Of a stretch of DNA of 64,000 nt, positions 33,718 to 51,386 are shown one piece after another (the stretch's first letter is position 1; every line of letters begins with the position of its first letter). The translations under genes were made by a program, and so were the position numbers. Under the pieces are notes generated by a model, which was given only the letters and a program-made list of their open reading frames with translations, made no database searches and was not told where the DNA came from. The stretch lies in the sequence record NC_023693.1; one strand, written 5' to 3'. This DNA is from Escherichia phage phi92.

Positions 33718-34188
33718 TTAGTCAGATTCCCAAATGTTGTCTTTCTTAATCCACATTCGTTGATTATCTGAACCTCTATAACGTTTCGTTGTTGGTTGAT
33801 TCATATCATACTTACCATCTATCACTATGTCAACCAGTTTTTTAATTTTTTCTGGAATTTCCTCAAAAAGATATCCTGTATATAAGACAATATCTTTTTT
33901 GTTTCCAAAACAATCTCTTACCTTCTCAAGAACATACTCTACAGTGTCAATGTTCTCTTTGTCAAGAGGTTCACCACCTAAAACTGTTAATCCTTTAATG
34001 AAAGGTCGAGATAAATCTTTCAAGATAAGATCTAATGTTTCAGTAGTGAACTCTTGTCCGTAGTTATACGACCAGGCTTTCTGGTTAAAGCAGCCACGGC
34101 AACCGTGGCTACAACCGCTCACCCACAAAGAGCATCTTACACCGTCACCGTTGAGCATGTCAACAGGTTCATATCCGGCGTAATTCAA
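33718..34188 (-). CDS. nrdG: anaerobic ribonucleotide reductase activating protein (radical SAM)
   Basis: CSHGCRGC radical-SAM cysteine cluster near N-terminus; 156 aa; adjacent to nrdD. Confidence 0.75.
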   Translation of the reverse strand: MNYAGYEPVDMLNGDGVRCSLWVSGCSHGCRGCFNQKAWSYNYGQEFTTETLDLILKDLSRPFIKGLTVLGGEPLDKENIDTVEYVLEKVRDCFGNKKDIVLYTGYLFEEIPEKIKKLVDIVIDGKYDMNQPTTKRYRGSDNQRMWIKKDNIWESD

Positions 34189-35164
34189 AAATGTTTCTCC
34201 CTTTCTAGTACCTCTTGCATTTTACCTTTATTATAAGGGCGAGAGTTAGGGGCAGAAAGGTATCCTGACACTCTTCTGATCACAGATATGGATTCTTCTT
34301 CATGATTACCGCAACTTGGACACTCGAAGCCTTTAGCCGTTGCTTTAAATTCACCATGAAAACCACATTTGAAACACTGATCTACAGGTTGGTTCACGCC
34401 AAAATAAGGAATTTTATTGTAGGCATAATCTACAAGAGTTTCCAGTGCTTGCAAGTTATTTTTAAGGTTTGGTGTTTCTACATAACCTATGTTCCCACCA
34501 TTACTAATTTGTGCAAAACCTTCCTCATAATCCCACTTTTGGAACGGGGTAGTGTGCATCCATACAGGTTGATGGAAAGAGTTTGTCAAGTAGTCACGAT
34601 CAATAGAACCAGGATAGCGATCATTTAACGCTTTGGCAAATTTATAGCACAAGGATTCTGCTGGTGTTCCATACAAACTAAAAGCTAAACCAGAACGTTC
34701 TTTAAATGTGCCACAGATATCCTTCATATATTGAAGGATGTTTTTACCCATTGCTTTTGGATTGGTGTTACCTGGGTATAAAATCTCCATAGCTTCTGCT
34801 AAACCTACATAACCGATACTAATAGAGGCATAACCACCTTCGAATAGTTTACCAATCTCTTCATTAGCTTCTAATCGAGCTAAAGCCCCTTCCATAAACA
34901 ATGTAGGGTTTTGAGATGCTTTGGTATGTCTAATACGGTTAACACGTAGCATATGTGCCTTATACGCCATCTCCATATGTTGTTCCAACAGTTCAGTAAA
35001 TAAGATGCCCTTTTCACGGGACTCTGCTGCAATGATAGGTAAGTTTAAAGAAACTACGCCTAAGTTGAAACGACCATCATATTTTTCACCTTGCTCTGTT
35101 GCATAGTATGACAAGAAACTTCTACACATTATGTTCAAAGTGGCTCGCAAGGCCACTCCCGCAC
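34185..35164 (-). CDS. nrdD: anaerobic ribonucleoside-triphosphate reductase, exon 2
   Basis: Glycyl-radical region RRVSGYL and C-terminal CFKCG...CPSCG zinc site; frame open upstream of the track start into the intron. Confidence 0.7.
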
Positions 35165-35398
35165 CATTACGTGCTGCTGCATGTCACCATGCAGATCAGA
35201 CTATATCTTCATGCTTAAAGCATGTCTACCATTTGGGGTGTCATAGGCTTACACCCTACGCTGCTACATTCATCACAGCTAGTCGTTAGGCATTTCGTAA
35301 CAGTACCCCCTTCTTCTGTGTTGGGAGTTCTGTTACGTTTAGCACGGGATTGTCTCGTTGAGAGTTCCCCCGTTTAGGCAGATTTTACATGAGCAGTT
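35165..35398 (-). ncRNA. group I intron (T4 td/nrdD-like), ORF-less; splice sites approximate
   Basis: About 235 nt interrupt nrdD; - strand reads ...TCTGCCTAAACGGGGGAACTCTCAACGAGACAATCCCGTGCTAAAC... closely resembling the conserved core of the T4 td intron as recalled from memory. Confidence 0.6.
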
Positions 35399-36263
35399 AT
35401 AGTTTACCCATGCTTGTGACGCGACCATCTGAAGATCCTGTAACTTCTTTGTTTAAAGGTACAGAGATAAAATCAGGATAAATGCGTTCAGCACAACACT
35501 CCATTGCCAGTTGCTTCAAATCATAGTTTGGATCGCCAGCTTTCATGTTAACACCATCTTCCAAGAAGAAGATAACTTTAGGAAACACAGGAGTTACCCT
35601 ATCTTTTCCTAATCCTTGTTTGTGCACCATTAGGTAGTTTTTAGTGATCATTCTACCAAAAGCAGAGGTATCCAAACCTAAACTAATTGTTATAAAAGGT
35701 GACTGACCATTTACACTCATTAGAGTGTTCACCTGGTAGATTAAAGTTTGCATTGCATCATAGACCTGTTTATCTACCATACGCATAGCAATATCATAAT
35801 CGCCAACATCGGCATATATTTTATTAAAACTTGCTTTAACGTATTGACTAAGCCCAGTATCAACATGTGCACAAGTTTGTCCACCATATTGGCTAGAAGC
35901 TACTGCTTGAATAATTTGAGTTAGGACAGTAGTCGCTACACCGATAGATTTTGGTTTTTCAATATGTGCATTACCAATACGGAAACCGTTCTCAAGCATA
36001 TCTTGGTAATTTACCAGGCAACAATTAGTTAAAGGTGAGAGTAAATAATCTAAATCGTGAATGTGACCATACCCACTTTTATGCCATTCTGCCAGATCTT
36101 CCGGTAAAATATGGGTCATTGCCATGTGCTTGCTTAGGATACCTGCTAGTAAATCTCGGTGAGTATTAACAATCATTGCAGGTTTGTTTGCATTTTCACG
36201 AGTAAATTCTTCGGATGTTTGTTCGAGGAATCCGATTACATCCTCATATAGTTTTTGGGTCAT
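35399..36263 (-). CDS. nrdD: anaerobic ribonucleoside-triphosphate reductase, exon 1
   Basis: 288 aa N-terminal portion ending a few codons into the intron; contiguous in function with exon 2. Confidence 0.7.
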
Positions 36264-38598: not shown

Positions 38599-41373
38599 TT
38601 AGTTTACCAGTTTATTTATATCGGGTAAAAGATTTATTTCACCTAAAAAATCACCTTCACCTTCCTCTAACCAACTCTCATATGCTTGTGCATGATTATA
38701 GTTACCATCAAAAGAATCTGCAACAAATTTTTCTACAGTTTTTCGAGATGTGCCAGCGCCAAATACACCAAGTTTAATACCATTGATCGGTAAAGTGGTG
38801 CTTGTTGGTACTTTCTCTGTTGCAACACGGTTGATATCTATAATCTCCTGTACGGTTGTGTTCCATTGTAAGCATTTAACACAACGGGTATGCGCTACAT
38901 ACAGTAGGTTTCGCTCTGCCTCTTCCAGTCCTACCCATTCACCAGTCTTTTTATCATAGTTGGAAGGAAAATCATTAGCAACAATAACCTGATCCCACTC
39001 CAAACCTTTAGACTTGTGTGCTGTAGTCAGTGTGACTTTTGCTGTAGGAGAATTTCTATGCGTTCTAAGTGTATGTGCTATAGTGTTCGCCTTACCAGAA
39101 ACTACGATGTTTAACAAGCGTTTAGCATCTGGATCAGCCTCTGCACACTCAACAAATTCATTCCAATCTGCGTAAGGTAATACAGTTTCATGTTTTACTT
39201 TCTCAATATCTCCTCTCCGAAGAGCATTAACACTATCTACCATAGAGATAAAATCCCTGGTATCTACGTTAATAATAATTTCTTCCCCATTTGCAATACG
39301 ATCCATTGCCTCCATAAGCAAGGTTAAATTCTTGCGAAAGATGATAGTGTAAGGTTTTGTATAGTCTACAACATCTGATTTGTAGCTACCTACTACAGTA
39401 TCAAAGCCTTTACCAACCAAAGGATGACGCAAAGGTTCTTTATCGCTTAAAATCATATTGGCAATGTTTGCCACTTTGGGGCCAAAACGGAAGCAAGCAG
39501 TTAATGGAAGCTCTGCCCCATACTTAGCTGTTTCAATCATCATATTAGAGCTACCTCTAAATTGATAAATGCAGTTGTGGCTAAGAATTTCATTGCCAAA
39601 GAAGTTAGCAGTATCCTCTACTTCAATATCATAATAGATACCCTCACTATCTACAATGTCCACAATCTCTTCTGCCGTTACAGTATCACCATCTTTTACC
39701 AACACAGACATGCCTTTAAACAAACCCGCTGCCGGAATTAAGTTATATTTGGCAGTGTCTACAGAGGACATGCATTCTTTTAAAGATGCAAACGGAACTA
39801 TTTCAAGGATCTTTTGTGCAAAACTCAATGCTTCACGATAAGAATTGAAATACTTACGTACACGGTAACGACCTTCCAATTTAGCAACACTTACGCTTAC
39901 ACCTGCTTTAATGAGTGAAGCATAGATCGGCATTTCACTTTCTGTCCACTCAAAACTGACTTGTGTTCCTTTACAACCTTGTGCTCGCAAAGTCACTGTT
40001 AACATTTTTCTTTCATCTACTGCACAATTGATGCTGTGCCAATGTGGATAAGCAAAATGATAGTCTTTATCCTCTAAAAGTTTAAAACCATTCTGTCCGA
40101 ATTGTTCAAAGATGTTATTGATCCTTTCTTGATTAATGCCGCGTGAACTTGCTTCAAATACACAAGTAGGAATGCCATATTGTAAACTGTATGCCATTTC
40201 TTTTTCCATAGCAGCTTCGCGATTTTCAACAATGTCCAACACCCATAATTTCTGTGCTTTTTCAGAACGTGTACGTTGCCCCAGTTTAGAAAAACCTTCT
40301 TTATCATCGAATTTGTTAGTGATCCCTACTCGGAAACCTAAATCTTTCCTCCACATTAGGTATACCACCATCTGGTCATCTTTCAGAACATAGGATGAAG
40401 CCCAAATACGATGGTTATGTGTCATATCTAAAGTTTTACCTGTAGCAGTAATAATATTCCTACCTTTTGTACGTGTAGATAAAGTTTTATTTGTTACTTT
40501 TCTAAATGTAACTTTACCATTAGAATAAGACTCTACCTTATCACCGATTTGCAGGTCTTTCATTGTAACCTGACCATTCTCGGTGTTAAGTACCGTGTTT
40601 TCCGACACACATTGGAATTCATCGCCCACTACCACAATTTGTTTTGCAGATTTAGCATTTCGCAGAATAGACAAGAATGCAGGGTTAACATCCTGGAATT
40701 CATCACCAAAAATAATATCATAACCAAGATCAGCACCAGACAATTCAAACAATTTTACATAGGTGTCATGCGTCATCAAAGTATCTGTATTAGGATCAAT
40801 GCGCTCTCGCCACAATTGTTTTGCATACTTAACTACTTCTGTAATTAGTTTGTGTTCGTTAATACCTTTTCTTTTAATATCTGCAAGATGTACACTAGGA
40901 AAATGTTTACGGCTGATAAAAGGATCATCCGAAAATTCAAACTTACCTACGGTTTGCTTGATCATTAAACCGATCATAGCACGAGTTAAAAGTGTTTTCC
41001 CTCGTTTATCAATAAGATTATTAATCTTAAATTTCTTTGCTATCTCGCTACCTGTACCTGCAACGTTAACATACTGTCCTTCTGGTCGTGACAGTTTTGC
41101 ACGTAAACGATGATCCAGGAATTGATAGCAAATAGAATGCAATGTACGGCATTCTACATTTAGTGGCATCTTACGTCGTGCTTCTTCTGCCATGCTTTTA
41201 TTGAAAGCTAAGTAAAGAATGCGATCTTCTGTACTGTTAGCCAGCAAATAAAGTGTTGACGTTTTGCCTGATCCAGATTTAGCTTGGATAGTTAAAAAGC
41301 GATGGTCTGGAAAAGCCTCCTTAATAGCTGTTTGCTCTTCTGTTGGAGTGAAGCTCAAATCTTTCTTAGCCAT
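38599..41373 (-). CDS. UvrD/Rep-like SF1 DNA helicase interrupted by an intein
   Basis: Walker A AKSGSGKT, motif II GDEFQDVN, motif III split as VVGDEFQ / CIYQFRGSS; start set to ATG (MAKKDL) with RBS agagagg. Confidence 0.75.
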   Translation of the reverse strand: MAKKDLSFTPTEEQTAIKEAFPDHRFLTIQAKSGSGKTSTLYLLANSTEDRILYLAFNKSMAEEARRKMPLNVECRTLHSICYQFLDHRLRAKLSRPEGQYVNVAGTGSEIAKKFKINNLIDKRGKTLLTRAMIGLMIKQTVGKFEFSDDPFISRKHFPSVHLADIKRKGINEHKLITEVVKYAKQLWRERIDPNTDTLMTHDTYVKLFELSGADLGYDIIFGDEFQDVNPAFLSILRNAKSAKQIVVVGDEFQCVSENTVLNTENGQVTMKDLQIGDKVESYSNGKVTFRKVTNKTLSTRTKGRNIITATGKTLDMTHNHRIWASSYVLKDDQMVVYLMWRKDLGFRVGITNKFDDKEGFSKLGQRTRSEKAQKLWVLDIVENREAAMEKEMAYSLQYGIPTCVFEASSRGINQERINNIFEQFGQNGFKLLEDKDYHFAYPHWHSINCAVDERKMLTVTLRAQGCKGTQVSFEWTESEMPIYASLIKAGVSVSVAKLEGRYRVRKYFNSYREALSFAQKILEIVPFASLKECMSSVDTAKYNLIPAAGLFKGMSVLVKDGDTVTAEEIVDIVDSEGIYYDIEVEDTANFFGNEILSHNCIYQFRGSSNMMIETAKYGAELPLTACFRFGPKVANIANMILSDKEPLRHPLVGKGFDTVVGSYKSDVVDYTKPYTIIFRKNLTLLMEAMDRIANGEEIIINVDTRDFISMVDSVNALRRGDIEKVKHETVLPYADWNEFVECAEADPDAKRLLNIVVSGKANTIAHTLRTHRNSPTAKVTLTTAHKSKGLEWDQVIVANDFPSNYDKKTGEWVGLEEAERNLLYVAHTRCVKCLQWNTTVQEIIDINRVATEKVPTSTTLPINGIKLGVFGAGTSRKTVEKFVADSFDGNYNHAQAYESWLEEGEGDFLGEINLLPDINKLVN
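39574..40611 (-). other. intein (about 346 aa) inside helicase motif III
   Basis: Begins CVSENTVLNTENGQVT right after GDEFQ, ends ...NEILSHN directly before CIYQFRG. Confidence 0.6.
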
Positions 41374-41374
41374 T

Positions 41375-41851
41375 TCAACCTCTCTTAATTTGTTTAACAA
41401 GCATAGGAACAAAATCTCGTTTTAAAATTTGTTCAATAATATGATCAGGTAGCTGTTGGAAATTATAATTAAAAGCTACTGTCTCACCTTTAGGTGTTTC
41501 TACCCGCACATATAACATGTTACGAAGTTTATCCACTTGTGCTGTATATTCTAAACCATGTAATTGATGTATTGCAAACATCAAATCGTCAGTTTCAGTT
41601 TGGAATCTATCACTTCCTTGCATCAAGGACAAGGTAAAAGGTAGATTTTCCCTAAGAGCCACCTTCTTAGGCACTAGTGAAGGGAAATACTCCCCAATAA
41701 CTTCCTGTGTAAGCTGAATACACTCTTTTTCAAGCTGGTTTTGTTCCTTGAGTTCACAAACACTTTTTTGTAAAGTGTTAACCTCTTTTTGCAAAGCTGC
41801 TAGTTGAGCACTTAACTTTCTTTTTTGATTACGACCAAAACGTTTAGACAT
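41375..41851 (-). CDS. hypothetical protein
   Basis: 158 aa ORF, N-terminal coiled coil. Confidence 0.4.
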   Translation of the reverse strand: MSKRFGRNQKRKLSAQLAALQKEVNTLQKSVCELKEQNQLEKECIQLTQEVIGEYFPSLVPKKVALRENLPFTLSLMQGSDRFQTETDDLMFAIHQLHGLEYTAQVDKLRNMLYVRVETPKGETVAFNYNFQQLPDHIIEQILKRDFVPMLVKQIKRG

Positions 41852-44604: not shown

Positions 44605-44769
44605 TTAGCGTACAAAATTAACTTCTGCTTCTTTCAGCTTTGACACTTCTACATAACCACCATGATCATCTTTAATCCATTCTTTTCCTTTACGGATGAT
44701 AACAGGGTAGGTAGAGTGAGTAAGTTTAGGTACAGATCTTTTTGTTTTAGTGATAGAAATATTTTGCAT
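44605..44769 (-). CDS. small hypothetical protein (54 aa)
   Basis: ATG preceded by RBS aaggag; basic peptide MQNISITKTKRSVPK...; below track size cut-off. Confidence 0.4.
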   Translation of the reverse strand: MQNISITKTKRSVPKLTHSTYPVIIRKGKEWIKDDHGGYVEVSKLKEAEVNFVR

Positions 44770-44888
44770 AGTAATCTCCTTAGTAAATTTTACATAGAGT
44801 CTAGATTATTTAGTAGATAGAGTCAATAACTAATTACTGTTAGATCTGTATTTTGTCTTCCATACACGATGGTAAACTTCAACAGGTT

Positions 44889-45095
44889 CTAACTTCCAAT
44901 GTTCAGGACTAGTTCAGGACAATATCTACAAAAGAGAAATAGATAGATAACTAAGACAGGTATTAAATAGTAAAATGGTATACGCTCATAACCATACTTA
45001 CGAGATAACATGTAGACATATAGATAGGGTATAACAATTAATCCTATAACTATAAGTAAGAAGAGAAGTATAAACTTTAGTGTAGTAATATCCAT
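44889..45095 (-). CDS. small membrane protein
   Basis: 68 aa with two hydrophobic helices. Confidence 0.35.
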   Translation of the reverse strand: MDITTLKFILLFLLIVIGLIVIPYLYVYMLSRKYGYERIPFYYLIPVLVIYLFLFCRYCPELVLNIGS

Positions 45096-45259
45096 AGCAT
45101 TCTCCTATACAGTAATATACTCTGTTCCTGCCCCTCCATGAGTGACAGGAACAATATCTATAGAGAATACTAACTCGCTTCGCTCGTCACCTTTCAGGTT
45201 TAGGGTAGCATGTTTTTCTGAAAAAGTCAATACTCTCCACAAAACTTTACAAAATACTT

Positions 45260-45532
45260 TTACATAGGTACAACAGAGTCTGTTTTGAAGTCGTACATAT
45301 GATTTACACCTGTGATTTTTGACATAGAGATTGCACGTTTAGCACCTGCAATTACCTGGTCTGTCTTCTTAATCTCTTCACGGAACTTACGTACAGTTAA
45401 AGAGAAGAAACGATGATCCATCCATTGACGATTCACACGATCACGCTTGAAGTGACGGAAATCTTCAATCTGTTTATTGCGCAATCGGCGCAGTACATGT
45501 AATAGTTGATAGTAAGGGTGTTTATTTTTCAT
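45260..45532 (-). CDS. hypothetical protein
   Basis: 90 aa basic ORF. Confidence 0.35.
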   Translation of the reverse strand: MKNKHPYYQLLHVLRRLRNKQIEDFRHFKRDRVNRQWMDHRFFSLTVRKFREEIKKTDQVIAGAKRAISMSKITGVNHMYDFKTDSVVPM

Positions 45533-45535
45533 AAT

Positions 45536-45964
45536 TTATTCTCCAAATCGAAAATCGTCAATATCATCAAACCATACACAATGGCGAGTCCTTTCTTTTT
45601 CTGTTGCAGACATTGTTTCAACAGCTTTAGGACTAAGCACAACAGGAATGTAACGAACAGGTCGTTCATAATAGTAGCCATACTTTTCTGTATTAGCTGC
45701 CTCAAAGACTTTACGGCGTTCTTCAAGATCTTCTATGGTGAATCCTACCATATAACCATCATATTTGCTACCCCATCCTTCCTCACTTTCAACAATTGGA
45801 GTATAAAAGCCGTTACGCGTCTCTGGCGCTGGTTTTTCTTGAGTCTGAAGGCAAGCCTCCCATCCTGCTTTAAAGACGTTATAGAGCGATTTACGCACGT
45901 TATGAGTGCCGCTTTCACTTGCTGGATAGAGTTCATTAAATTTGTCTTGAATTTGTTGTGTCAT
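45536..45964 (-). CDS. hypothetical protein
   Basis: 142 aa ORF. Confidence 0.4.
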   Translation of the reverse strand: MTQQIQDKFNELYPASESGTHNVRKSLYNVFKAGWEACLQTQEKPAPETRNGFYTPIVESEEGWGSKYDGYMVGFTIEDLEERRKVFEAANTEKYGYYYERPVRYIPVVLSPKAVETMSATEKERTRHCVWFDDIDDFRFGE

Positions 45965-46107
45965 ACTCGCCCCTTAGTGATTATTTGACCAGCTAAACAA
46001 ATAGCTTGTAGTACAGTAAAGAAGTAGCCTAATTTTACACTACCTAGTACCCAGAATGCAATGTTTGCAAACAAACAAAAAGTAATATTAAGTTTAAAGA
46101 ATAACAT

Positions 46108-46308
46108 TTAATCCCCTTCATATTTAGGTAAAGGCATATATGCCACAATAGGAGGGTAATCAAAGTGAAAATGATGGTTCACCACAATAATCTTACCAGA
46201 CATACTTTTATGCACTTCACAATACCCTTTTTCACCATCTTCCATTACCACCACATACTCACCTAGTGGAATATCGTATGGATCTTCTACTTTTACCCAT
46301 CCTGTCAT
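46108..46308 (-). CDS. hypothetical protein
   Basis: 66 aa ORF. Confidence 0.35.
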   Translation of the reverse strand: MTGWVKVEDPYDIPLGEYVVVMEDGEKGYCEVHKSMSGKIIVVNHHFHFDYPPIVAYMPLPKYEGD

Positions 46309-46472
46309 TTTGTAAACTCCTCATAGTAAGGTAAAGCCTTGATCAGTTGTTCTGAAGTGCCATTTTGCACCCACGTAACACCATTGTCAACAGAAACATA
46401 CCCTTTTTTGTCAATAAATTTACGCAGACAGCCAGTGAACTTATTTTTGTAGATAACCATGTTTACTCCTTG

Positions 46473-46829
46473 TTACATCCACAGATTATGGAAATACTTA
46501 GCAAACAAAATGCGACCTTCTAAACGATCTTGCCGCTGTTTTTCATTAACTTCTTCTGGTGGAGTTGAATCCTTAAAAGAGGACTCCATTTTTTCAAGAA
46601 TTTCTAGCCAGTGTTCTGCTGCTCGTTCTTCCATATAAGGTAGATAGTCACCTTTAGCGTGTGGGTACATCCGACGAAGTAACCCACTAGGAATTTTAAC
46701 ATTGTTTGTGGCTATCACTTTTGCACGATATGCAGAAAGTGCATTGTAAATCAGTTTACTTAGTGTCACATCTAGATCAAGAAGATCACTCTCTTCAAAT
46801 TGAATTTCATCGTGTACAATTTTCATCAT
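46473..46829 (-). CDS. hypothetical protein
   Basis: 118 aa ORF. Confidence 0.4.
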   Translation of the reverse strand: MMKIVHDEIQFEESDLLDLDVTLSKLIYNALSAYRAKVIATNNVKIPSGLLRRMYPHAKGDYLPYMEERAAEHWLEILEKMESSFKDSTPPEEVNEKQRQDRLEGRILFAKYFHNLWM

Positions 46830-47110
46830 GCCTTCTCCCGATCTGCGTCTAATTTCAACAAGAAAGCTGTATACTCTTCCGAGCCTTGGTGTAAAAACAT
46901 GCGATAAGAGCTTACCAGTTTCTTCGTTGTTGTATAACGTTCCATTTCCCCAACAACACCCCCACCCAGTGTGTAGAGCACAACACCCTCAAACCCAACA
47001 TGAGTTACTACTTCAACCAAATCTGTGTTATCTCAATGGTAGTTAGGTGACACAATAAGATCGCCAACTGCCAGTTTAATGTTTGCTGCTTCGTCTTGTG
47101 AATAGTACAT
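46826..47110 (-). CDS. hypothetical protein interrupted by an in-frame TGA (readthrough, recoding or pseudogene)
   Basis: ATG at 47110 with strong RBS gaggag; 25 codons, TGA at 47033-47035, then 94 further in-frame codons with no RBS of their own. Confidence 0.4.
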
Positions 47111-47122
47111 TTTGTTCTCCTC

Positions 47123-47413
47123 TCACATTAAGACACGTTTTGTATCAATGGGGGCATTGTCGAACATGTTTATCACTTTGTCAAGTTTGTGTATTAACTC
47201 GTTCGTAATGTTCCACTCTTTGTATGATCTCCATTGTTTCTTATTCTCACCTACCTGGTGTAAAACTTTGATTGGTGCATTCAAACGTACATTGCGTTCT
47301 TTGTCCTCTTCAAAAGAGGCTAACCATTTTTCGTTATGCCCATGAACAGCAATAATAATGCCAAAACCATCAAAAGTTTCTGTAATATTCTTAGTTGCTA
47401 GTGTGATGTTCAT
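47123..47413 (-). CDS. hypothetical protein
   Basis: 96 aa ORF with RBS agagg; first gene of the - strand block. Confidence 0.4.
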   Translation of the reverse strand: MNITLATKNITETFDGFGIIIAVHGHNEKWLASFEEDKERNVRLNAPIKVLHQVGENKKQWRSYKEWNITNELIHKLDKVINMFDNAPIDTKRVLM

Positions 47414-47473
47414 ATCTAACCTCTTTTGTTACGATGCACACAGAGTACCAGAAATTAATTTCAGATCAAGTAT

Positions 47474-47502
47474 TGACATACTGTTTTATTGTGCTAATCT
47501 TA
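47474..47502 (+). promoter_or_regulatory. sigma70-like promoter in divergent intergenic region
   Basis: TTGACA at 47474-47479 followed by AT-rich -10 candidates; region 47414-47522 separates divergent gene blocks. Confidence 0.35.
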
Positions 47503-47522
47503 ATGCATACACAAATGAGAGG

Positions 47523-48084
47523 AGATAAACGAATGCAAAACATCGATCTTACTTGGATAGAAGCCAAAGAAGCAATGTTAAAAGGCAAACGCGTTAAACA
47601 TAAATACTTTTGCGAAGGAGAATGGTTTGAAATGCGTAACCGATCCCTTGTAGATGAAAAAGGGAATGACATGGGACAATGGTTCAAAAATGAAATTTGG
47701 CAGGGGACAGGTTGGTCTATAGTTGAAGAGCAGCCTAGCCCAAGCGCACTGTTTAGCCCTATTATGTATCGCGTTATCGGTGCTTTAGTTGTTGATCACG
47801 GGATTGCAGTGGAAAAAGAATGCTGGGAAGAGGTATCTTTTTTCAACCTGGCTTCTTATGCAAAAAGCCATATGCACTTGTTTGAAGAAGGGGATGAATT
47901 TGTTCTTCGTATGCGATATGGCAAAGAATTCAGATTACCACTTGATAACGATGTAGACACTGTTGTAAAATGGTTAGCAGAGCATTACGCTTACGATGCA
48001 ATTTGTGGTCGCAGCTTCGGCAACGAACGCTGGGACATGATTTGTGAAAAATATGATTTTGAGCCGGAGTACGGAGTTTTATAA
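47523..48084 (+). CDS. hypothetical protein (DUF2829-like N-terminus)
   Basis: Start set to ATG (MQNIDLTWIEAKEAMLKGKRV) with RBS gaggag. Confidence 0.4.
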
Positions 48085-50121: not shown

Positions 50122-50135
50122 GTAAGCCAGCAAAT

Positions 50136-50160
50136 AAAAACCCGCTTCGGCGGGTTTTCT
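50136..50160 (+). terminator. rho-independent terminator
   Basis: AAAAACCCGC-TTCG-GCGGGTTTTCT. Confidence 0.55.
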
Positions 50161-50195
50161 TGCATTAATGCCAGATTTAATAAGAGGAGTAGTAG

Positions 50196-51386
50196 ATGGC
50201 AGCACCAAAATCATGGGAACAATATAAAGAAGAGTGTCAACCAATAGCAGAGAGTAAGCAAATCCAAATCTTAGGATGGACGGGAGAATGGAAAGGGAAC
50301 AAGACTAAACTTAAGCTATCTTGCTCTGATCATGGAGAGTGGAACACCACGAACATTAATGATTTTAAGAATGGACGTGGTTGTCCGGCATGTACAAGTA
50401 ATAAGTCGTTAACATGGGAAACAGAATTGCCGATCTTAGAAGAGATAGCACAGAAGAAGGGGTATCAAGTGTTAGGGTACGTTGGAGAATGGAAAGGGGT
50501 TAATACAAAACTTGATTTGTTGTGTCATTGTGGGAATAGATGGCAAAGTACAATTATTAAGACATTTAAACGTGTAAATGGTTGTCCACAGTGTAGAATA
50601 GAGAAGGTAAAGCAAGCCAGTACGAAGTCAGATGATGAAAGGATCGCCTCTTTCCTTGCTAAGCGGGATTATCCAGAAGGAACTATCTTTAAACGATCTG
50701 ATCGGACTACCTTGCAAGGTCGTGCAGTTTATTGGTTTGTGTATTGCCCTATCTGTGCACAAGATGAAATAACGAAAGCTGGGTTATGTAGTGGATGGTT
50801 TGAAAGTACAGCAGGGGATTTGCAAAAAGGGACTGCCGCTTGTCGTTGTAGTAAGTCCCCTAAATACACAGACGATCAGAATACATTCCGTGCAATGAAG
50901 GTATGCGAGGATAACGGTTATCAGTTTGTTGGTTGGGTTGATAAGGTAGGAACACAGTCTAAGTTTAAATATCTGTGTCCAGAACACGGGGTACAAATTA
51001 TAACATTGGGTAGTATGGTTAGGGGTCATGGATGCCCTGAATGTGCTGGTAATAGTCAACAGCAATTATATATTAACATTGTTAAAGATAATGATATTAC
51101 CGTTGCTCTTAAGTTTGGCATAGCTAAAGATAGCGACAGGCGATTAAACAGTCAAAATAGCCGTAATCTGTTTTTTATGGAGCGTATTTGTTTATATGAT
51201 TTTAGTACAGTGAAACAATGTAAGGCTACTGAAAGAGCTATAAAGAAAAAATTAAAAACTGGTATTTTAACGGCAAGAGAGTTGAAAGACGGTTATACAG
51301 AAACAGTAAGTGTTTCTGATTTGGAAAATCTTCAAAAAATTATTACACAATATGGTGGCAAATTGGTATATAGTAAGGAGGTGTAA
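50196..51386 (+). CDS. zinc-ribbon repeat protein with C-terminal T5orf172 (GIY-YIG-like) domain
   Basis: Repeated units GW.GEWKG..TKL.L.C..HG.W...GCP.C; C-terminal LYINIVK...ALKFGIAKDSDRRLNSQN. Confidence 0.5.
   Translation: MAAPKSWEQYKEECQPIAESKQIQILGWTGEWKGNKTKLKLSCSDHGEWNTTNINDFKNGRGCPACTSNKSLTWETELPILEEIAQKKGYQVLGYVGEWKGVNTKLDLLCHCGNRWQSTIIKTFKRVNGCPQCRIEKVKQASTKSDDERIASFLAKRDYPEGTIFKRSDRTTLQGRAVYWFVYCPICAQDEITKAGLCSGWFESTAGDLQKGTAACRCSKSPKYTDDQNTFRAMKVCEDNGYQFVGWVDKVGTQSKFKYLCPEHGVQIITLGSMVRGHGCPECAGNSQQQLYINIVKDNDITVALKFGIAKDSDRRLNSQNSRNLFFMERICLYDFSTVKQCKATERAIKKKLKTGILTARELKDGYTETVSVSDLENLQKIITQYGGKLVYSKEV

What the first reader, a model, noticed from the sequence alone, without database searches (positions are those of the whole stretch)
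46826..47110. Gene with strong RBS is interrupted by an in-frame TGA after 25 codons
ATG at 47110 has a near-ideal gaggag RBS. The frame reads MYYSQDEAANIKLAVGDLIVSPNYH, then TGA (47033-47035), then continues in frame for 94 more codons (DNTDLVEVVTHVGFEGVV...) to 46826. The downstream part has only a weak TTG start and no RBS. This is either programmed UGA readthrough or recoding giving two products, a recent nonsense mutation, or a sequencing error.
Basis: seen in the sequence. Interest (0 to 1): 0.55.

Follow-up and report, generated by a model that had tools for sequence, protein, structure and literature searches.

The report
Strain-specific stop in phi92 accessory gene
The in-frame TGA is a single-base change (Trp codon TGG to stop TGA) found only in phage phi92's copy of a small, dispensable "phage Tudor domain" gene, so it is an ordinary nonsense mutation or base-call error and not programmed recoding.

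Summary
On the minus strand, AGGAG sits 6 nt before ATG 47110, 25 codons follow, then TGA at 47035-47033, and the frame stays open to TGA 46828-46826. There are 68 sense codons after the stop, not 94.

The window is Escherichia phage phi92. Its public annotation already treats the TGA as a stop and calls a 51-aa fragment, gp215.

All 18 independent orthologous loci I read have TGG (Trp) at codon 26. None of 56 deposited phages matches a 61-nt probe carrying the TGA. Three phages encode a protein identical to the Trp-restored translation.

The restored 94-aa protein is one Pfam PF24144 "Phage_tudor" domain (residues 9-93). The stop falls in the loop between strands 1 and 2, after the family's invariant Gly-Asp. 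Both halves are under purifying selection in relatives (dN/dS 0.28 and 0.22).

TGA ends 12 of 77 window genes normally, and no other mapped gene has an in-frame stop. No RNA structure or Rfam match follows the TGA. A 98-99% identical relative has no suppressor tRNA. The gene is cleanly absent from many relatives, so losing it is tolerated.

Verdict: a private TGG-to-TGA nonsense change, either a real mutation or a base-call error. Basal readthrough by host tRNA-Trp could at most restore a few percent of the ancestral protein. Interest is low.

The parts
46826..47110 (-). Interrupted 285-nt ORF. It is the phi92 orthologue of a 94-aa Phage_tudor (PF24144, phrog_3215) accessory gene and is intact in all relatives that carry it.
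47117..47124 (-). Shine-Dalgarno GAGAGGAG, with AGGAG 6 nt upstream of the ATG. It overlaps the TGA stop of the upstream gene gp216 (47125-47123).
   Evidence: sequence; conserved in all five relatives aligned
47108..47110 (-). ATG start codon of the gene (GTG in phage alia).
47033..47035 (-). Premature TGA at codon 26. The A at 47033 (T on the + strand) replaces the G found in every relative (TGG, Trp). The next base is G, giving the context UGAG.
47036..47110 (-). The 25-codon N-terminal piece. It holds predicted strand beta1 (residues 18-21) and the family-invariant G16 and D17. dN/dS in relatives is 0.28.
46826..46981 (-). The 51-aa fragment annotated in the public phi92 record as gp215 (GTG start at codon 44, preceded by GAGGG). 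It lacks beta1, beta2 and the first two residues of beta3 of the predicted barrel.
46826..46829 (-). ATGA overlap. The natural TGA stop of the Tudor gene (46828-46826) overlaps the ATG (46829-46827) of the next gene, a 118-aa phrog_16602 protein, which also has its own GGGAG (46839-46835).

Best explanation
The sequenced stock of phage phi92 carries a real, recent, private nonsense mutation in a dispensable early accessory gene. A G-to-A transition on the coding strand (window 47033) turned Trp26 (TGG) into an opal stop (TGA).

Ribosomes start at the strong RBS and terminate after 25 residues, in the loop between beta1 and beta2 of a roughly 94-aa Tudor/SH3-like barrel. The main product is therefore a non-folding 25-aa peptide, and the gene is effectively a young pseudogene.

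Nothing here is programmed. At most, basal near-cognate decoding of UGA by host Trp-tRNA(Trp) would regenerate the exact ancestral protein at a few percent of normal yield. Some reinitiation could also occur at TTG31 or GTG44, giving fragments that lack the conserved Gly-Asp strand.

Shown: the ancestral codon is TGG, the stop is private to phi92, it lies inside one domain, the gene is dispensable, and recoding signals are absent. Inferred: that the change is in the phage and not only in the record, and the levels of readthrough and reinitiation.
For: - Identity: the window is phi92. Its ORFs are exact matches to Phi92_gp208, gp209, gp216 and gp221, and gp215 is the 51-aa downstream fragment.
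- Ancestral codon: codon 26 is TGG in 18 of 18 independent loci from phage records, ENA, Logan and JGI contigs.
- Private stop: 0 of 56 phage records are identical to a 61-nt probe centred on the TGA, and the best differ by exactly one base. No gene call for the 64-aa downstream ORF exists in the contig index.
- The restored protein is 100% identical to proteins of ESCO9, DIJ07P2 and vB_Ec-G1, and 88 records carry the gene in one tblastn piece.
- One domain: PF24144 spans residues 9-93. The AlphaFold model (pLDDT 75.7) puts residue 26 in the beta1-beta2 loop. The invariant G16 and D17 lie upstream of the stop.
- Purifying selection on both sides of the stop in relatives: dN/dS 0.28 and 0.22.
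- Sequence quality looks good. Of 77 fully mapped genes only this one has an in-frame stop, against 886 substitutions over 37.8 kb relative to ESCO9. The one apparent frameshift (gp208) is a natural allele shared with ESCO32 and three Logan contigs.
- The change is GGG to GAG, a substitution and not a homopolymer-length error.
- Dispensable: the 285-nt cassette is cleanly absent from arall. Thirteen listed records match over only 816-820 nt instead of 1101.
- Basal UGA readthrough by Trp-tRNA(Trp) is about 2% at 37 C and about 4% at 25 C in E. coli K-12 reporters (PMC10570021).
Against: No reads and no independent re-sequencing of phi92 could be found. No record is more than 97.6% identical over 15 kb, and the contigs carrying exact gp216 are only 97.7-98.8% identical. 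A base-call error therefore cannot be excluded. The readthrough figure comes from a reporter in K-12 in a different sequence context. From my own knowledge, K-12 RF2 is unusually weak, so phi92's natural encapsulated hosts may read through less.
Confidence: 0.62

Rival explanations
1. Base-call or assembly error in the deposited phi92 genome. The phage really has TGG and an intact 94-aa gene, and the stop exists only in the record.
For: The TGA is unique to this one record among all sequences examined. It differs from the nearest relatives by a single base, and the restored protein is identical to theirs. No independent phi92 sequence was available to confirm it.
Against: The rest of the window looks clean: 76 other fully mapped genes are intact, and the only frameshift-like difference is a genuine natural allele. 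The change is a substitution inside GGG, not the homopolymer-length error typical of older pyrosequencing (that last point is from my own knowledge).
Confidence: 0.3
2. Programmed UGA readthrough or recoding that deliberately yields a 25-aa peptide plus a full-length protein, working like the Qbeta coat/A1 site.
For: The strong RBS and the fully open downstream frame. UGA is the leakiest stop in E. coli and is read as Trp (PMC10570021).
Against: - The stop is absent from all 18 orthologous loci and from all 56 probe-matching phages.
- It interrupts a single domain in a loop instead of separating two modules.
- The 75 nt starting just before the UGA fold worse than shuffled controls (z = +1.96), and there is no Rfam hit.
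- The same UGAG context ends two other window genes normally.
Confidence: 0.03
3. Two independent genes: a 25-codon micro-ORF and a separate downstream gene with its own start (TTG31 or GTG44, as in the gp215 annotation).
For: GTG44 has a GAGGG 4 nt upstream, and the public annotation calls it as gp215.
Against: Relatives have one continuous gene, with purifying selection across the junction. The Pfam domain spans residues 9-93. A GTG44 product lacks beta1, beta2 and the first two residues of beta3, as well as the invariant G16 and D17. No other genome has such a gene call.
Confidence: 0.02
4. Altered decoding of TGA: genome-wide reassignment to Trp, a phage-encoded opal suppressor tRNA, or selenocysteine insertion.
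For: Some phages do recode stop codons (my own knowledge). rV5-like phages carry tRNA clusters.
Against: - TGA terminates 12 of 77 window genes, and only one gene has an in-frame TGA.
- The 15 tRNAs of the 98-99% identical phage ESCO9 include no UCA or CCA anticodon, and the window has no tRNA.
- There is no SECIS-like hairpin or Rfam match.
- Orthologues have Trp at this position, not Cys or Sec.
Confidence: 0.01

Closest known systems
Ordinary opal (TGG to TGA) nonsense alleles and young pseudogenes in dispensable phage accessory genes
   Same: A single transition turns a Trp codon into a stop. All orthologues are intact. The gene is dispensable, being absent from many relatives. The RBS and downstream frame are still intact because the lesion is recent.
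   Different: Nothing substantive. The only uncertainty is whether the lesion is in the phage or only in the record.
Qbeta coat / A1 readthrough (programmed UGA readthrough by tRNA-Trp in E. coli; from my own knowledge)
   Same: A UGA in an E. coli phage mRNA with an open frame beyond it. Any readthrough would insert Trp via host tRNA-Trp at a level of a few percent.
   Different: In Qbeta the stop is conserved and essential, ends a complete functional protein and appends an extension. Here the stop is private to one genome, cuts a single domain after 25 residues, and every relative encodes Trp.
Pfam PF24144 'Phage tudor domain' / PHROG 3215 (function unknown)
   Same: The Trp-restored translation matches the family over nearly its full length: 90.3 bits, profile positions 2-88 of 90. 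The predicted fold is a five-strand small barrel plus a C-terminal helix.
   Different: The phi92 copy is interrupted. No experimental function or solved structure exists for the family, and structural matches to SH3/Tudor/PWWP-like barrels are weak.
Stop-codon-reassigned phages and code-4 (TGA = Trp) genomes
   Same: An in-frame TGA at a position where relatives have Trp.
   Different: There is one in-frame TGA among 77 genes, TGA is used as a terminator in 16% of genes, and the lineage has no suppressor tRNA.

Membership tests
Nonsense allele / young pseudogene of an accessory gene | Orthologues carry a sense codon at the position and an uninterrupted ORF | tested here: met
   TGG in 18 of 18 loci, with ORFs of 94-95 aa. 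88 phage records give single-piece full-length tblastn matches.
Nonsense allele / young pseudogene of an accessory gene | A single nucleotide change accounts for the interruption, and the rest of the gene is near-identical | tested here: met
   2 differences in 285 nt against ESCO9, L008 and L015. One is TGG to TGA and the other is synonymous, GGA to GGG.
Nonsense allele / young pseudogene of an accessory gene | Loss of the gene is tolerated | tested here: met
   The cassette is precisely absent in arall. 13 listed relatives match over 816-820 nt instead of 1101. 125 records match the region but only 88 carry the gene.
Nonsense allele / young pseudogene of an accessory gene | The lesion is present in the biological entity (reads or independent re-sequencing) | not testable with these tools
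   No reads are available and no second phi92 assembly was found.
Programmed stop-codon readthrough | The stop codon is conserved among orthologues | tested here: not met
   The TGA is private to this window.
Programmed stop-codon readthrough | A stimulatory 3' context or RNA structure | tested here: not met
   The 75 nt starting just before the UGA fold at -11.4 kcal/mol against a shuffle mean of -16.6 (z = +1.96). No Rfam hit. The UGAG context also ends two normal genes.
Programmed stop-codon readthrough | The stop separates a functional short product from an extension | tested here: not met
   The stop lies inside one Pfam domain (residues 9-93), in the beta1-beta2 loop of the model.
Programmed stop-codon readthrough | Measured readthrough above the basal level | not testable with these tools
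   This needs a dual-reporter assay or mass spectrometry.
TGA reassignment / suppressor-tRNA decoding | In-frame TGAs are widespread and TGA is avoided as a terminator | tested here: not met
   1 of 77 genes has an in-frame TGA, and 12 of 77 end in TGA.
TGA reassignment / suppressor-tRNA decoding | A tRNA with anticodon UCA is encoded by the phage | tested here: inconclusive
   None in the window and none among the 15 tRNAs of the whole genome of ESCO9. The part of phi92 outside the window was not available.
Selenoprotein (UGA = Sec) | A SECIS hairpin just downstream, and Cys or Sec in orthologues | tested here: not met
   No stable hairpin and no Rfam match. Orthologues have Trp.
Pfam PF24144 Phage_tudor | Score above the curated gathering threshold over most of the profile | tested here: met
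   90.3 bits against a cut-off of 27, profile positions 2-88 of 90, for the Trp-restored translation. phrog_3215 at E = 3.7e-22.
Pfam PF24144 Phage_tudor | A Tudor/SH3-like five-strand barrel fold | tested here: inconclusive
   The AlphaFold model has five strands plus a helix at pLDDT 75.7. Foldseek against the PDB gives only weak matches (best E = 0.019), to a ribosomal protein chain I take to be eL21 and to a PWWP domain. No sequence match in the PDB.

The most novel reading that the evidence does not exclude
The TGA is real and is retained in phi92 because it is useful. Basal Trp-tRNA(Trp) readthrough would regenerate the exact ancestral Tudor-domain protein at only a few percent of normal dose. 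That would make a natural 'leaky hypomorph' that tunes down a protein harmful at full dose in phi92's encapsulated K1/K92 hosts, possibly with condition-dependent yield, since UGA readthrough in E. coli varies with temperature and cAMP (PMC10570021).
Probability: 0.04. Interest if true: 0.35.

Novelty: already known. Interest (0 to 1): 0.07.

Why it matters
It matters little biologically. This is a single private stop in a dispensable gene of unknown function. The practical value is curatorial. The public phi92 protein gp215 (51 aa) is an annotation artefact of this stop and should be labelled as a fragment or pseudogene of a 94-aa PF24144 Phage_tudor gene. The case also shows that a strong RBS followed by an open frame beyond a stop is not evidence of recoding until orthologues have been checked.

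Tried and rejected
- An IMG/VR pattern scan for the codon-26 neighbourhood found nothing. A genome-contig scan also found nothing. The metagenome scan gave three contigs, all TGG.
- Exact-protein look-ups for phi92 gp215 and for the 64-aa TTG-start ORF found no contigs, so there is no second assembly of this allele.
- The original phi92 genome paper is not in the held library, whether requested by DOI or by my remembered PMC id. The sequencing method therefore could not be checked. The 2026 phi92 cryo-EM paper does not mention gp215.
- There is no literature on 'phage tudor' or PF24144, and no PDB sequence relative.
- Foldseek against the PDB gave only weak small-barrel matches. I do not rest any functional claim on them.
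- My first script for reading codon 26 in the metagenome contigs used a fuzzy anchor that landed out of frame. It was replaced by a direct pattern read.
- The promoter/terminator scan of 44700-47700 found nothing beyond chance (8 promoter-like sites against 10.2 expected).
- I considered that the 1-nt deletion in gp208 might indicate poor sequence quality. I rejected this because the identical 68-aa allele occurs in ESCO32 and in three unrelated Logan assemblies.
- Selenocysteine, code reassignment and a suppressor tRNA were each tested and rejected.

Full report
OBSERVATION. On the minus strand the sequence reads as follows: the TGA stop of the upstream gene (47125-47123), GAGAGGAG (47124-47117, with AGGAG 6 nt before the start), ATG at 47110, then 25 sense codons (MYYSQDEAANIKLAVGDLIVSPNYH). 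TGA follows at 47035-47033, then 68 further sense codons (DNTDLVEVVTHVGFEGVV…DADREKA), and a final TGA at 46828-46826. The whole ORF is 285 nt. In-frame restart candidates after the stop are TTG31 (no SD), GTG44 (GAGGG 4 nt upstream) and ATG56.

WHAT GENOME THIS IS. The region is 99.2% identical to Escherichia phage vB_EcoM_ESCO9 and 96-98% identical to other Justusliebigvirus (rV5-like, Stephanstirmvirinae) phages. Window ORFs are exact matches to Phi92_gp208, gp209, gp216 and gp221. A 51-aa protein called Phi92_gp215 (CBY99644.1) is exactly the GTG44-to-stop fragment of this ORF and exists in only one genome. The window is therefore phage phi92, and its public annotation already treats the TGA as a real stop. 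The phi92 record itself is not in the searchable phage collection: the best match over 15 kb is 97.6%.

WHAT THE RELATIVES SHOW. In ESCO9, PaulScherrer, Eryne, alia and EC.P2 the orthologous position is annotated as a single 94-95-aa CDS. The DNA alignment shows TGG where phi92 has TGA, so the difference is one G-to-A transition within GGG. I then read codon 26 in every locus fetched: five phage records, ten ENA/Logan contigs that encode the exact phi92 gp216 next door, and three metagenome contigs. All 18 independent loci have TGG and an open 94-95-aa frame. A 61-nt probe centred on the TGA matched 56 phage records, none at 100% and the best at exactly one mismatch. tblastn with the Trp-restored protein found 88 records carrying the gene in one piece, three of them 100% identical. 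No contig in the gene-position index has a call for the 64-aa downstream ORF. The TGA is therefore private to the phi92 record, and the ancestral state is Trp.

ONE GENE, ONE DOMAIN. The restored protein matches Pfam PF24144 'Phage tudor domain' at 90.3 bits (cut-off 27) over residues 9-93, and phrog_3215 over residues 10-93. A search of 1.8 billion representatives found ten distant homologues of 74-93 aa. In the alignment with them the invariant positions include G16 and D17, which lie upstream of the stop. Trp26 sits in a two-residue loop insertion specific to the rV5-like clade. An AlphaFold model (pLDDT 75.7) has beta1 at 18-21, beta2 at 31-38, beta3 at 42-48, beta4 at 57-61, beta5 at 71-73 and a C-terminal helix at 78-93, so the stop falls in the beta1-beta2 loop. 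Structural matches are weak (best E = 0.019, to a ribosomal protein chain I take to be eL21 and to a PWWP domain), and there is no PDB sequence relative. The fold assignment therefore rests mainly on the Pfam match. Among 12 distinct orthologous DNA sequences, dN/dS is 0.28 for codons 2-25 and 0.22 for codons 27-94, so both parts are coding in the same frame in relatives. Neither the 25-aa peptide nor a product starting at residue 31 or 44 can form the barrel. That last point is an inference from the model.

TESTS FOR RECODING.
(a) Conservation of the stop: absent, as shown above.
(b) RNA signal: the 75 nt starting just before the UGA fold at -11.4 kcal/mol against -16.6 ± 2.6 for shuffles (z = +1.96). 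All 200 shuffles fold at least as well. There is no Rfam hit at E ≤ 1 in 46400-47500.
(c) Genetic code: mapping ESCO9's annotated CDSs onto the window placed 83 of 88, and 77 aligned full-length without gaps. Their stops are TAA 58, TGA 12 and TAG 7, including two with the same UGAG context. This is the only one with an in-frame stop.
(d) Suppressor tRNA: there is none in the window. The complete genome of ESCO9 has 15 tRNAs, none with a UCA or CCA anticodon. The rest of phi92 could not be inspected.
Programmed readthrough, selenocysteine insertion and code reassignment are therefore each contradicted.

DISPENSABILITY. In phage arall the 285-nt cassette, including its RBS, is missing cleanly between the gp216 and gp214 homologues. 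Thirteen listed relatives match the 1101-nt query over only 816-820 nt. 125 records match the region but only 88 carry the gene. ESCO32 also lacks it. Loss of function is evidently tolerated, which is the setting in which a nonsense allele can persist.

REAL MUTATION OR ERROR? This cannot be settled without reads. In favour of a real mutation, the record looks clean. There are 886 substitutions but no other premature stop over 37.8 kb of coding alignment. The single frameshift-like difference (gp208, 68 aa against 88 aa) is a natural allele found in ESCO32 and in three Logan assemblies. The change is also a substitution and not a homopolymer-length error. In favour of an error, the allele is seen nowhere else. 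I put this at roughly 2:1 for a real mutation.

HOW IT WORKS (inference). Translation starts efficiently and terminates at codon 26. In E. coli K-12 reporters, UGA is read through at about 2% at 37 °C and about 4% at 25 °C by competition between Trp-tRNA(Trp) and RF2 (PMC10570021). Because the ancestral residue is Trp, any such readthrough would regenerate the exact wild-type protein, so the allele is at most a leaky hypomorph. The natural stop overlaps the ATG of the next gene (ATGA at 46829-46826). That gene has its own GGGAG five nucleotides upstream, so polarity on it should be mild.

COMPARISON AND VERDICT. The closest known thing is an ordinary opal nonsense allele, or young pseudogene, in a phage accessory gene. 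It resembles the Qbeta A1 readthrough site only in that a UGA in an E. coli phage message would be read as Trp. It fails the defining features of that class: a conserved stop, a complete upstream product, and a context effect. Novelty: already known in kind. Interest is low. The practical outcome is that phi92 gp215 should be annotated as a fragment of an interrupted Phage_tudor gene.

Noticed in passing
window 35177-35451 (- strand), within nrdD at 34185-36263: A group I catalytic intron (Rfam RF00028, 70.6 bits against gathering 50, E = 7.7e-18, full model 1-253) interrupts the anaerobic ribonucleotide reductase gene nrdD. It splits the gene into ORFs of 288 aa (36263-35397) and 323 aa (35156-34185). 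ESCO9 has an uninterrupted 1800-nt nrdD, and the inserted segment is about 285 nt (35121-35405). This resembles the T4 nrdD (sunY) intron, which I recall from my own knowledge.
   Followed up: partly
window 39573-40616 (- strand), within ORF 38599-41412: A 1044-nt in-frame insertion in the UvrD-type helicase relative to ESCO9. The ORF reads through as 937 aa. Relatives PaulScherrer and JohannJBalmer annotate an 'intein-containing UvrD/Rep family helicase precursor' here, so this is very probably an intein.
   Followed up: partly
window 44830-45095 (- strand), deletion at about 44908/44909: A 1-nt deletion (TT to T) relative to ESCO9 and three metagenome contigs shortens a small membrane-like protein from 88 aa to 68 aa (Phi92_gp208). 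The identical 68-aa allele is also in phage ESCO32 and three unrelated Logan assemblies, so it is a natural polymorphism and not an error.
   Followed up: yes
window 46826-47122 compared with L006 (arall) 878-890: The whole Tudor gene with its RBS behaves as a presence/absence cassette among rV5-like phages. It is cleanly missing in arall, and 13 listed records match over 816-820 nt instead of 1101. The junction lies within the shared CAAAACGTGT…TTA motif at the end of the gp216 homologue.
   Followed up: partly
window 47123-47413 (- strand), Phi92_gp216: The 96-aa upstream neighbour is DUF7325 (PF24011, 74.4 bits). It also gives a sub-threshold match to LAGLIDADG_1 (PF00961, 19 bits against a cut-off of 23.1, residues 37-94). 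This may be chance, or a remnant of a homing-endonuclease fold.
   Followed up: no
L024 (ESCO32, OM386658.1) 1203-1858: In ESCO32 the gp216-gp214 gene pair lies on the opposite strand relative to the downstream small-gene block, and has no Tudor gene between the two. This suggests an inversion or rearrangement of the module around the divergent promoter region.
   Followed up: no
window 50122-51023: ESCO9_00105 (990 nt) matches the window only patchily (117 nt at 93%, 207 nt at 73%, 363 nt at 92%). The central part of this gene, next to the AAA ATPase gp221, is a divergent or replaced segment in phi92. Five small ESCO9 genes are also absent from the window.
   Followed up: no
L002 (PaulScherrer) 1544-1729, equivalent to just downstream of window 46473: PaulScherrer and VEcB carry about 203 nt more than phi92 here. 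In PaulScherrer this is an additional 61-aa ORF after the gp214 homologue, another small-gene indel in this early region.
   Followed up: no
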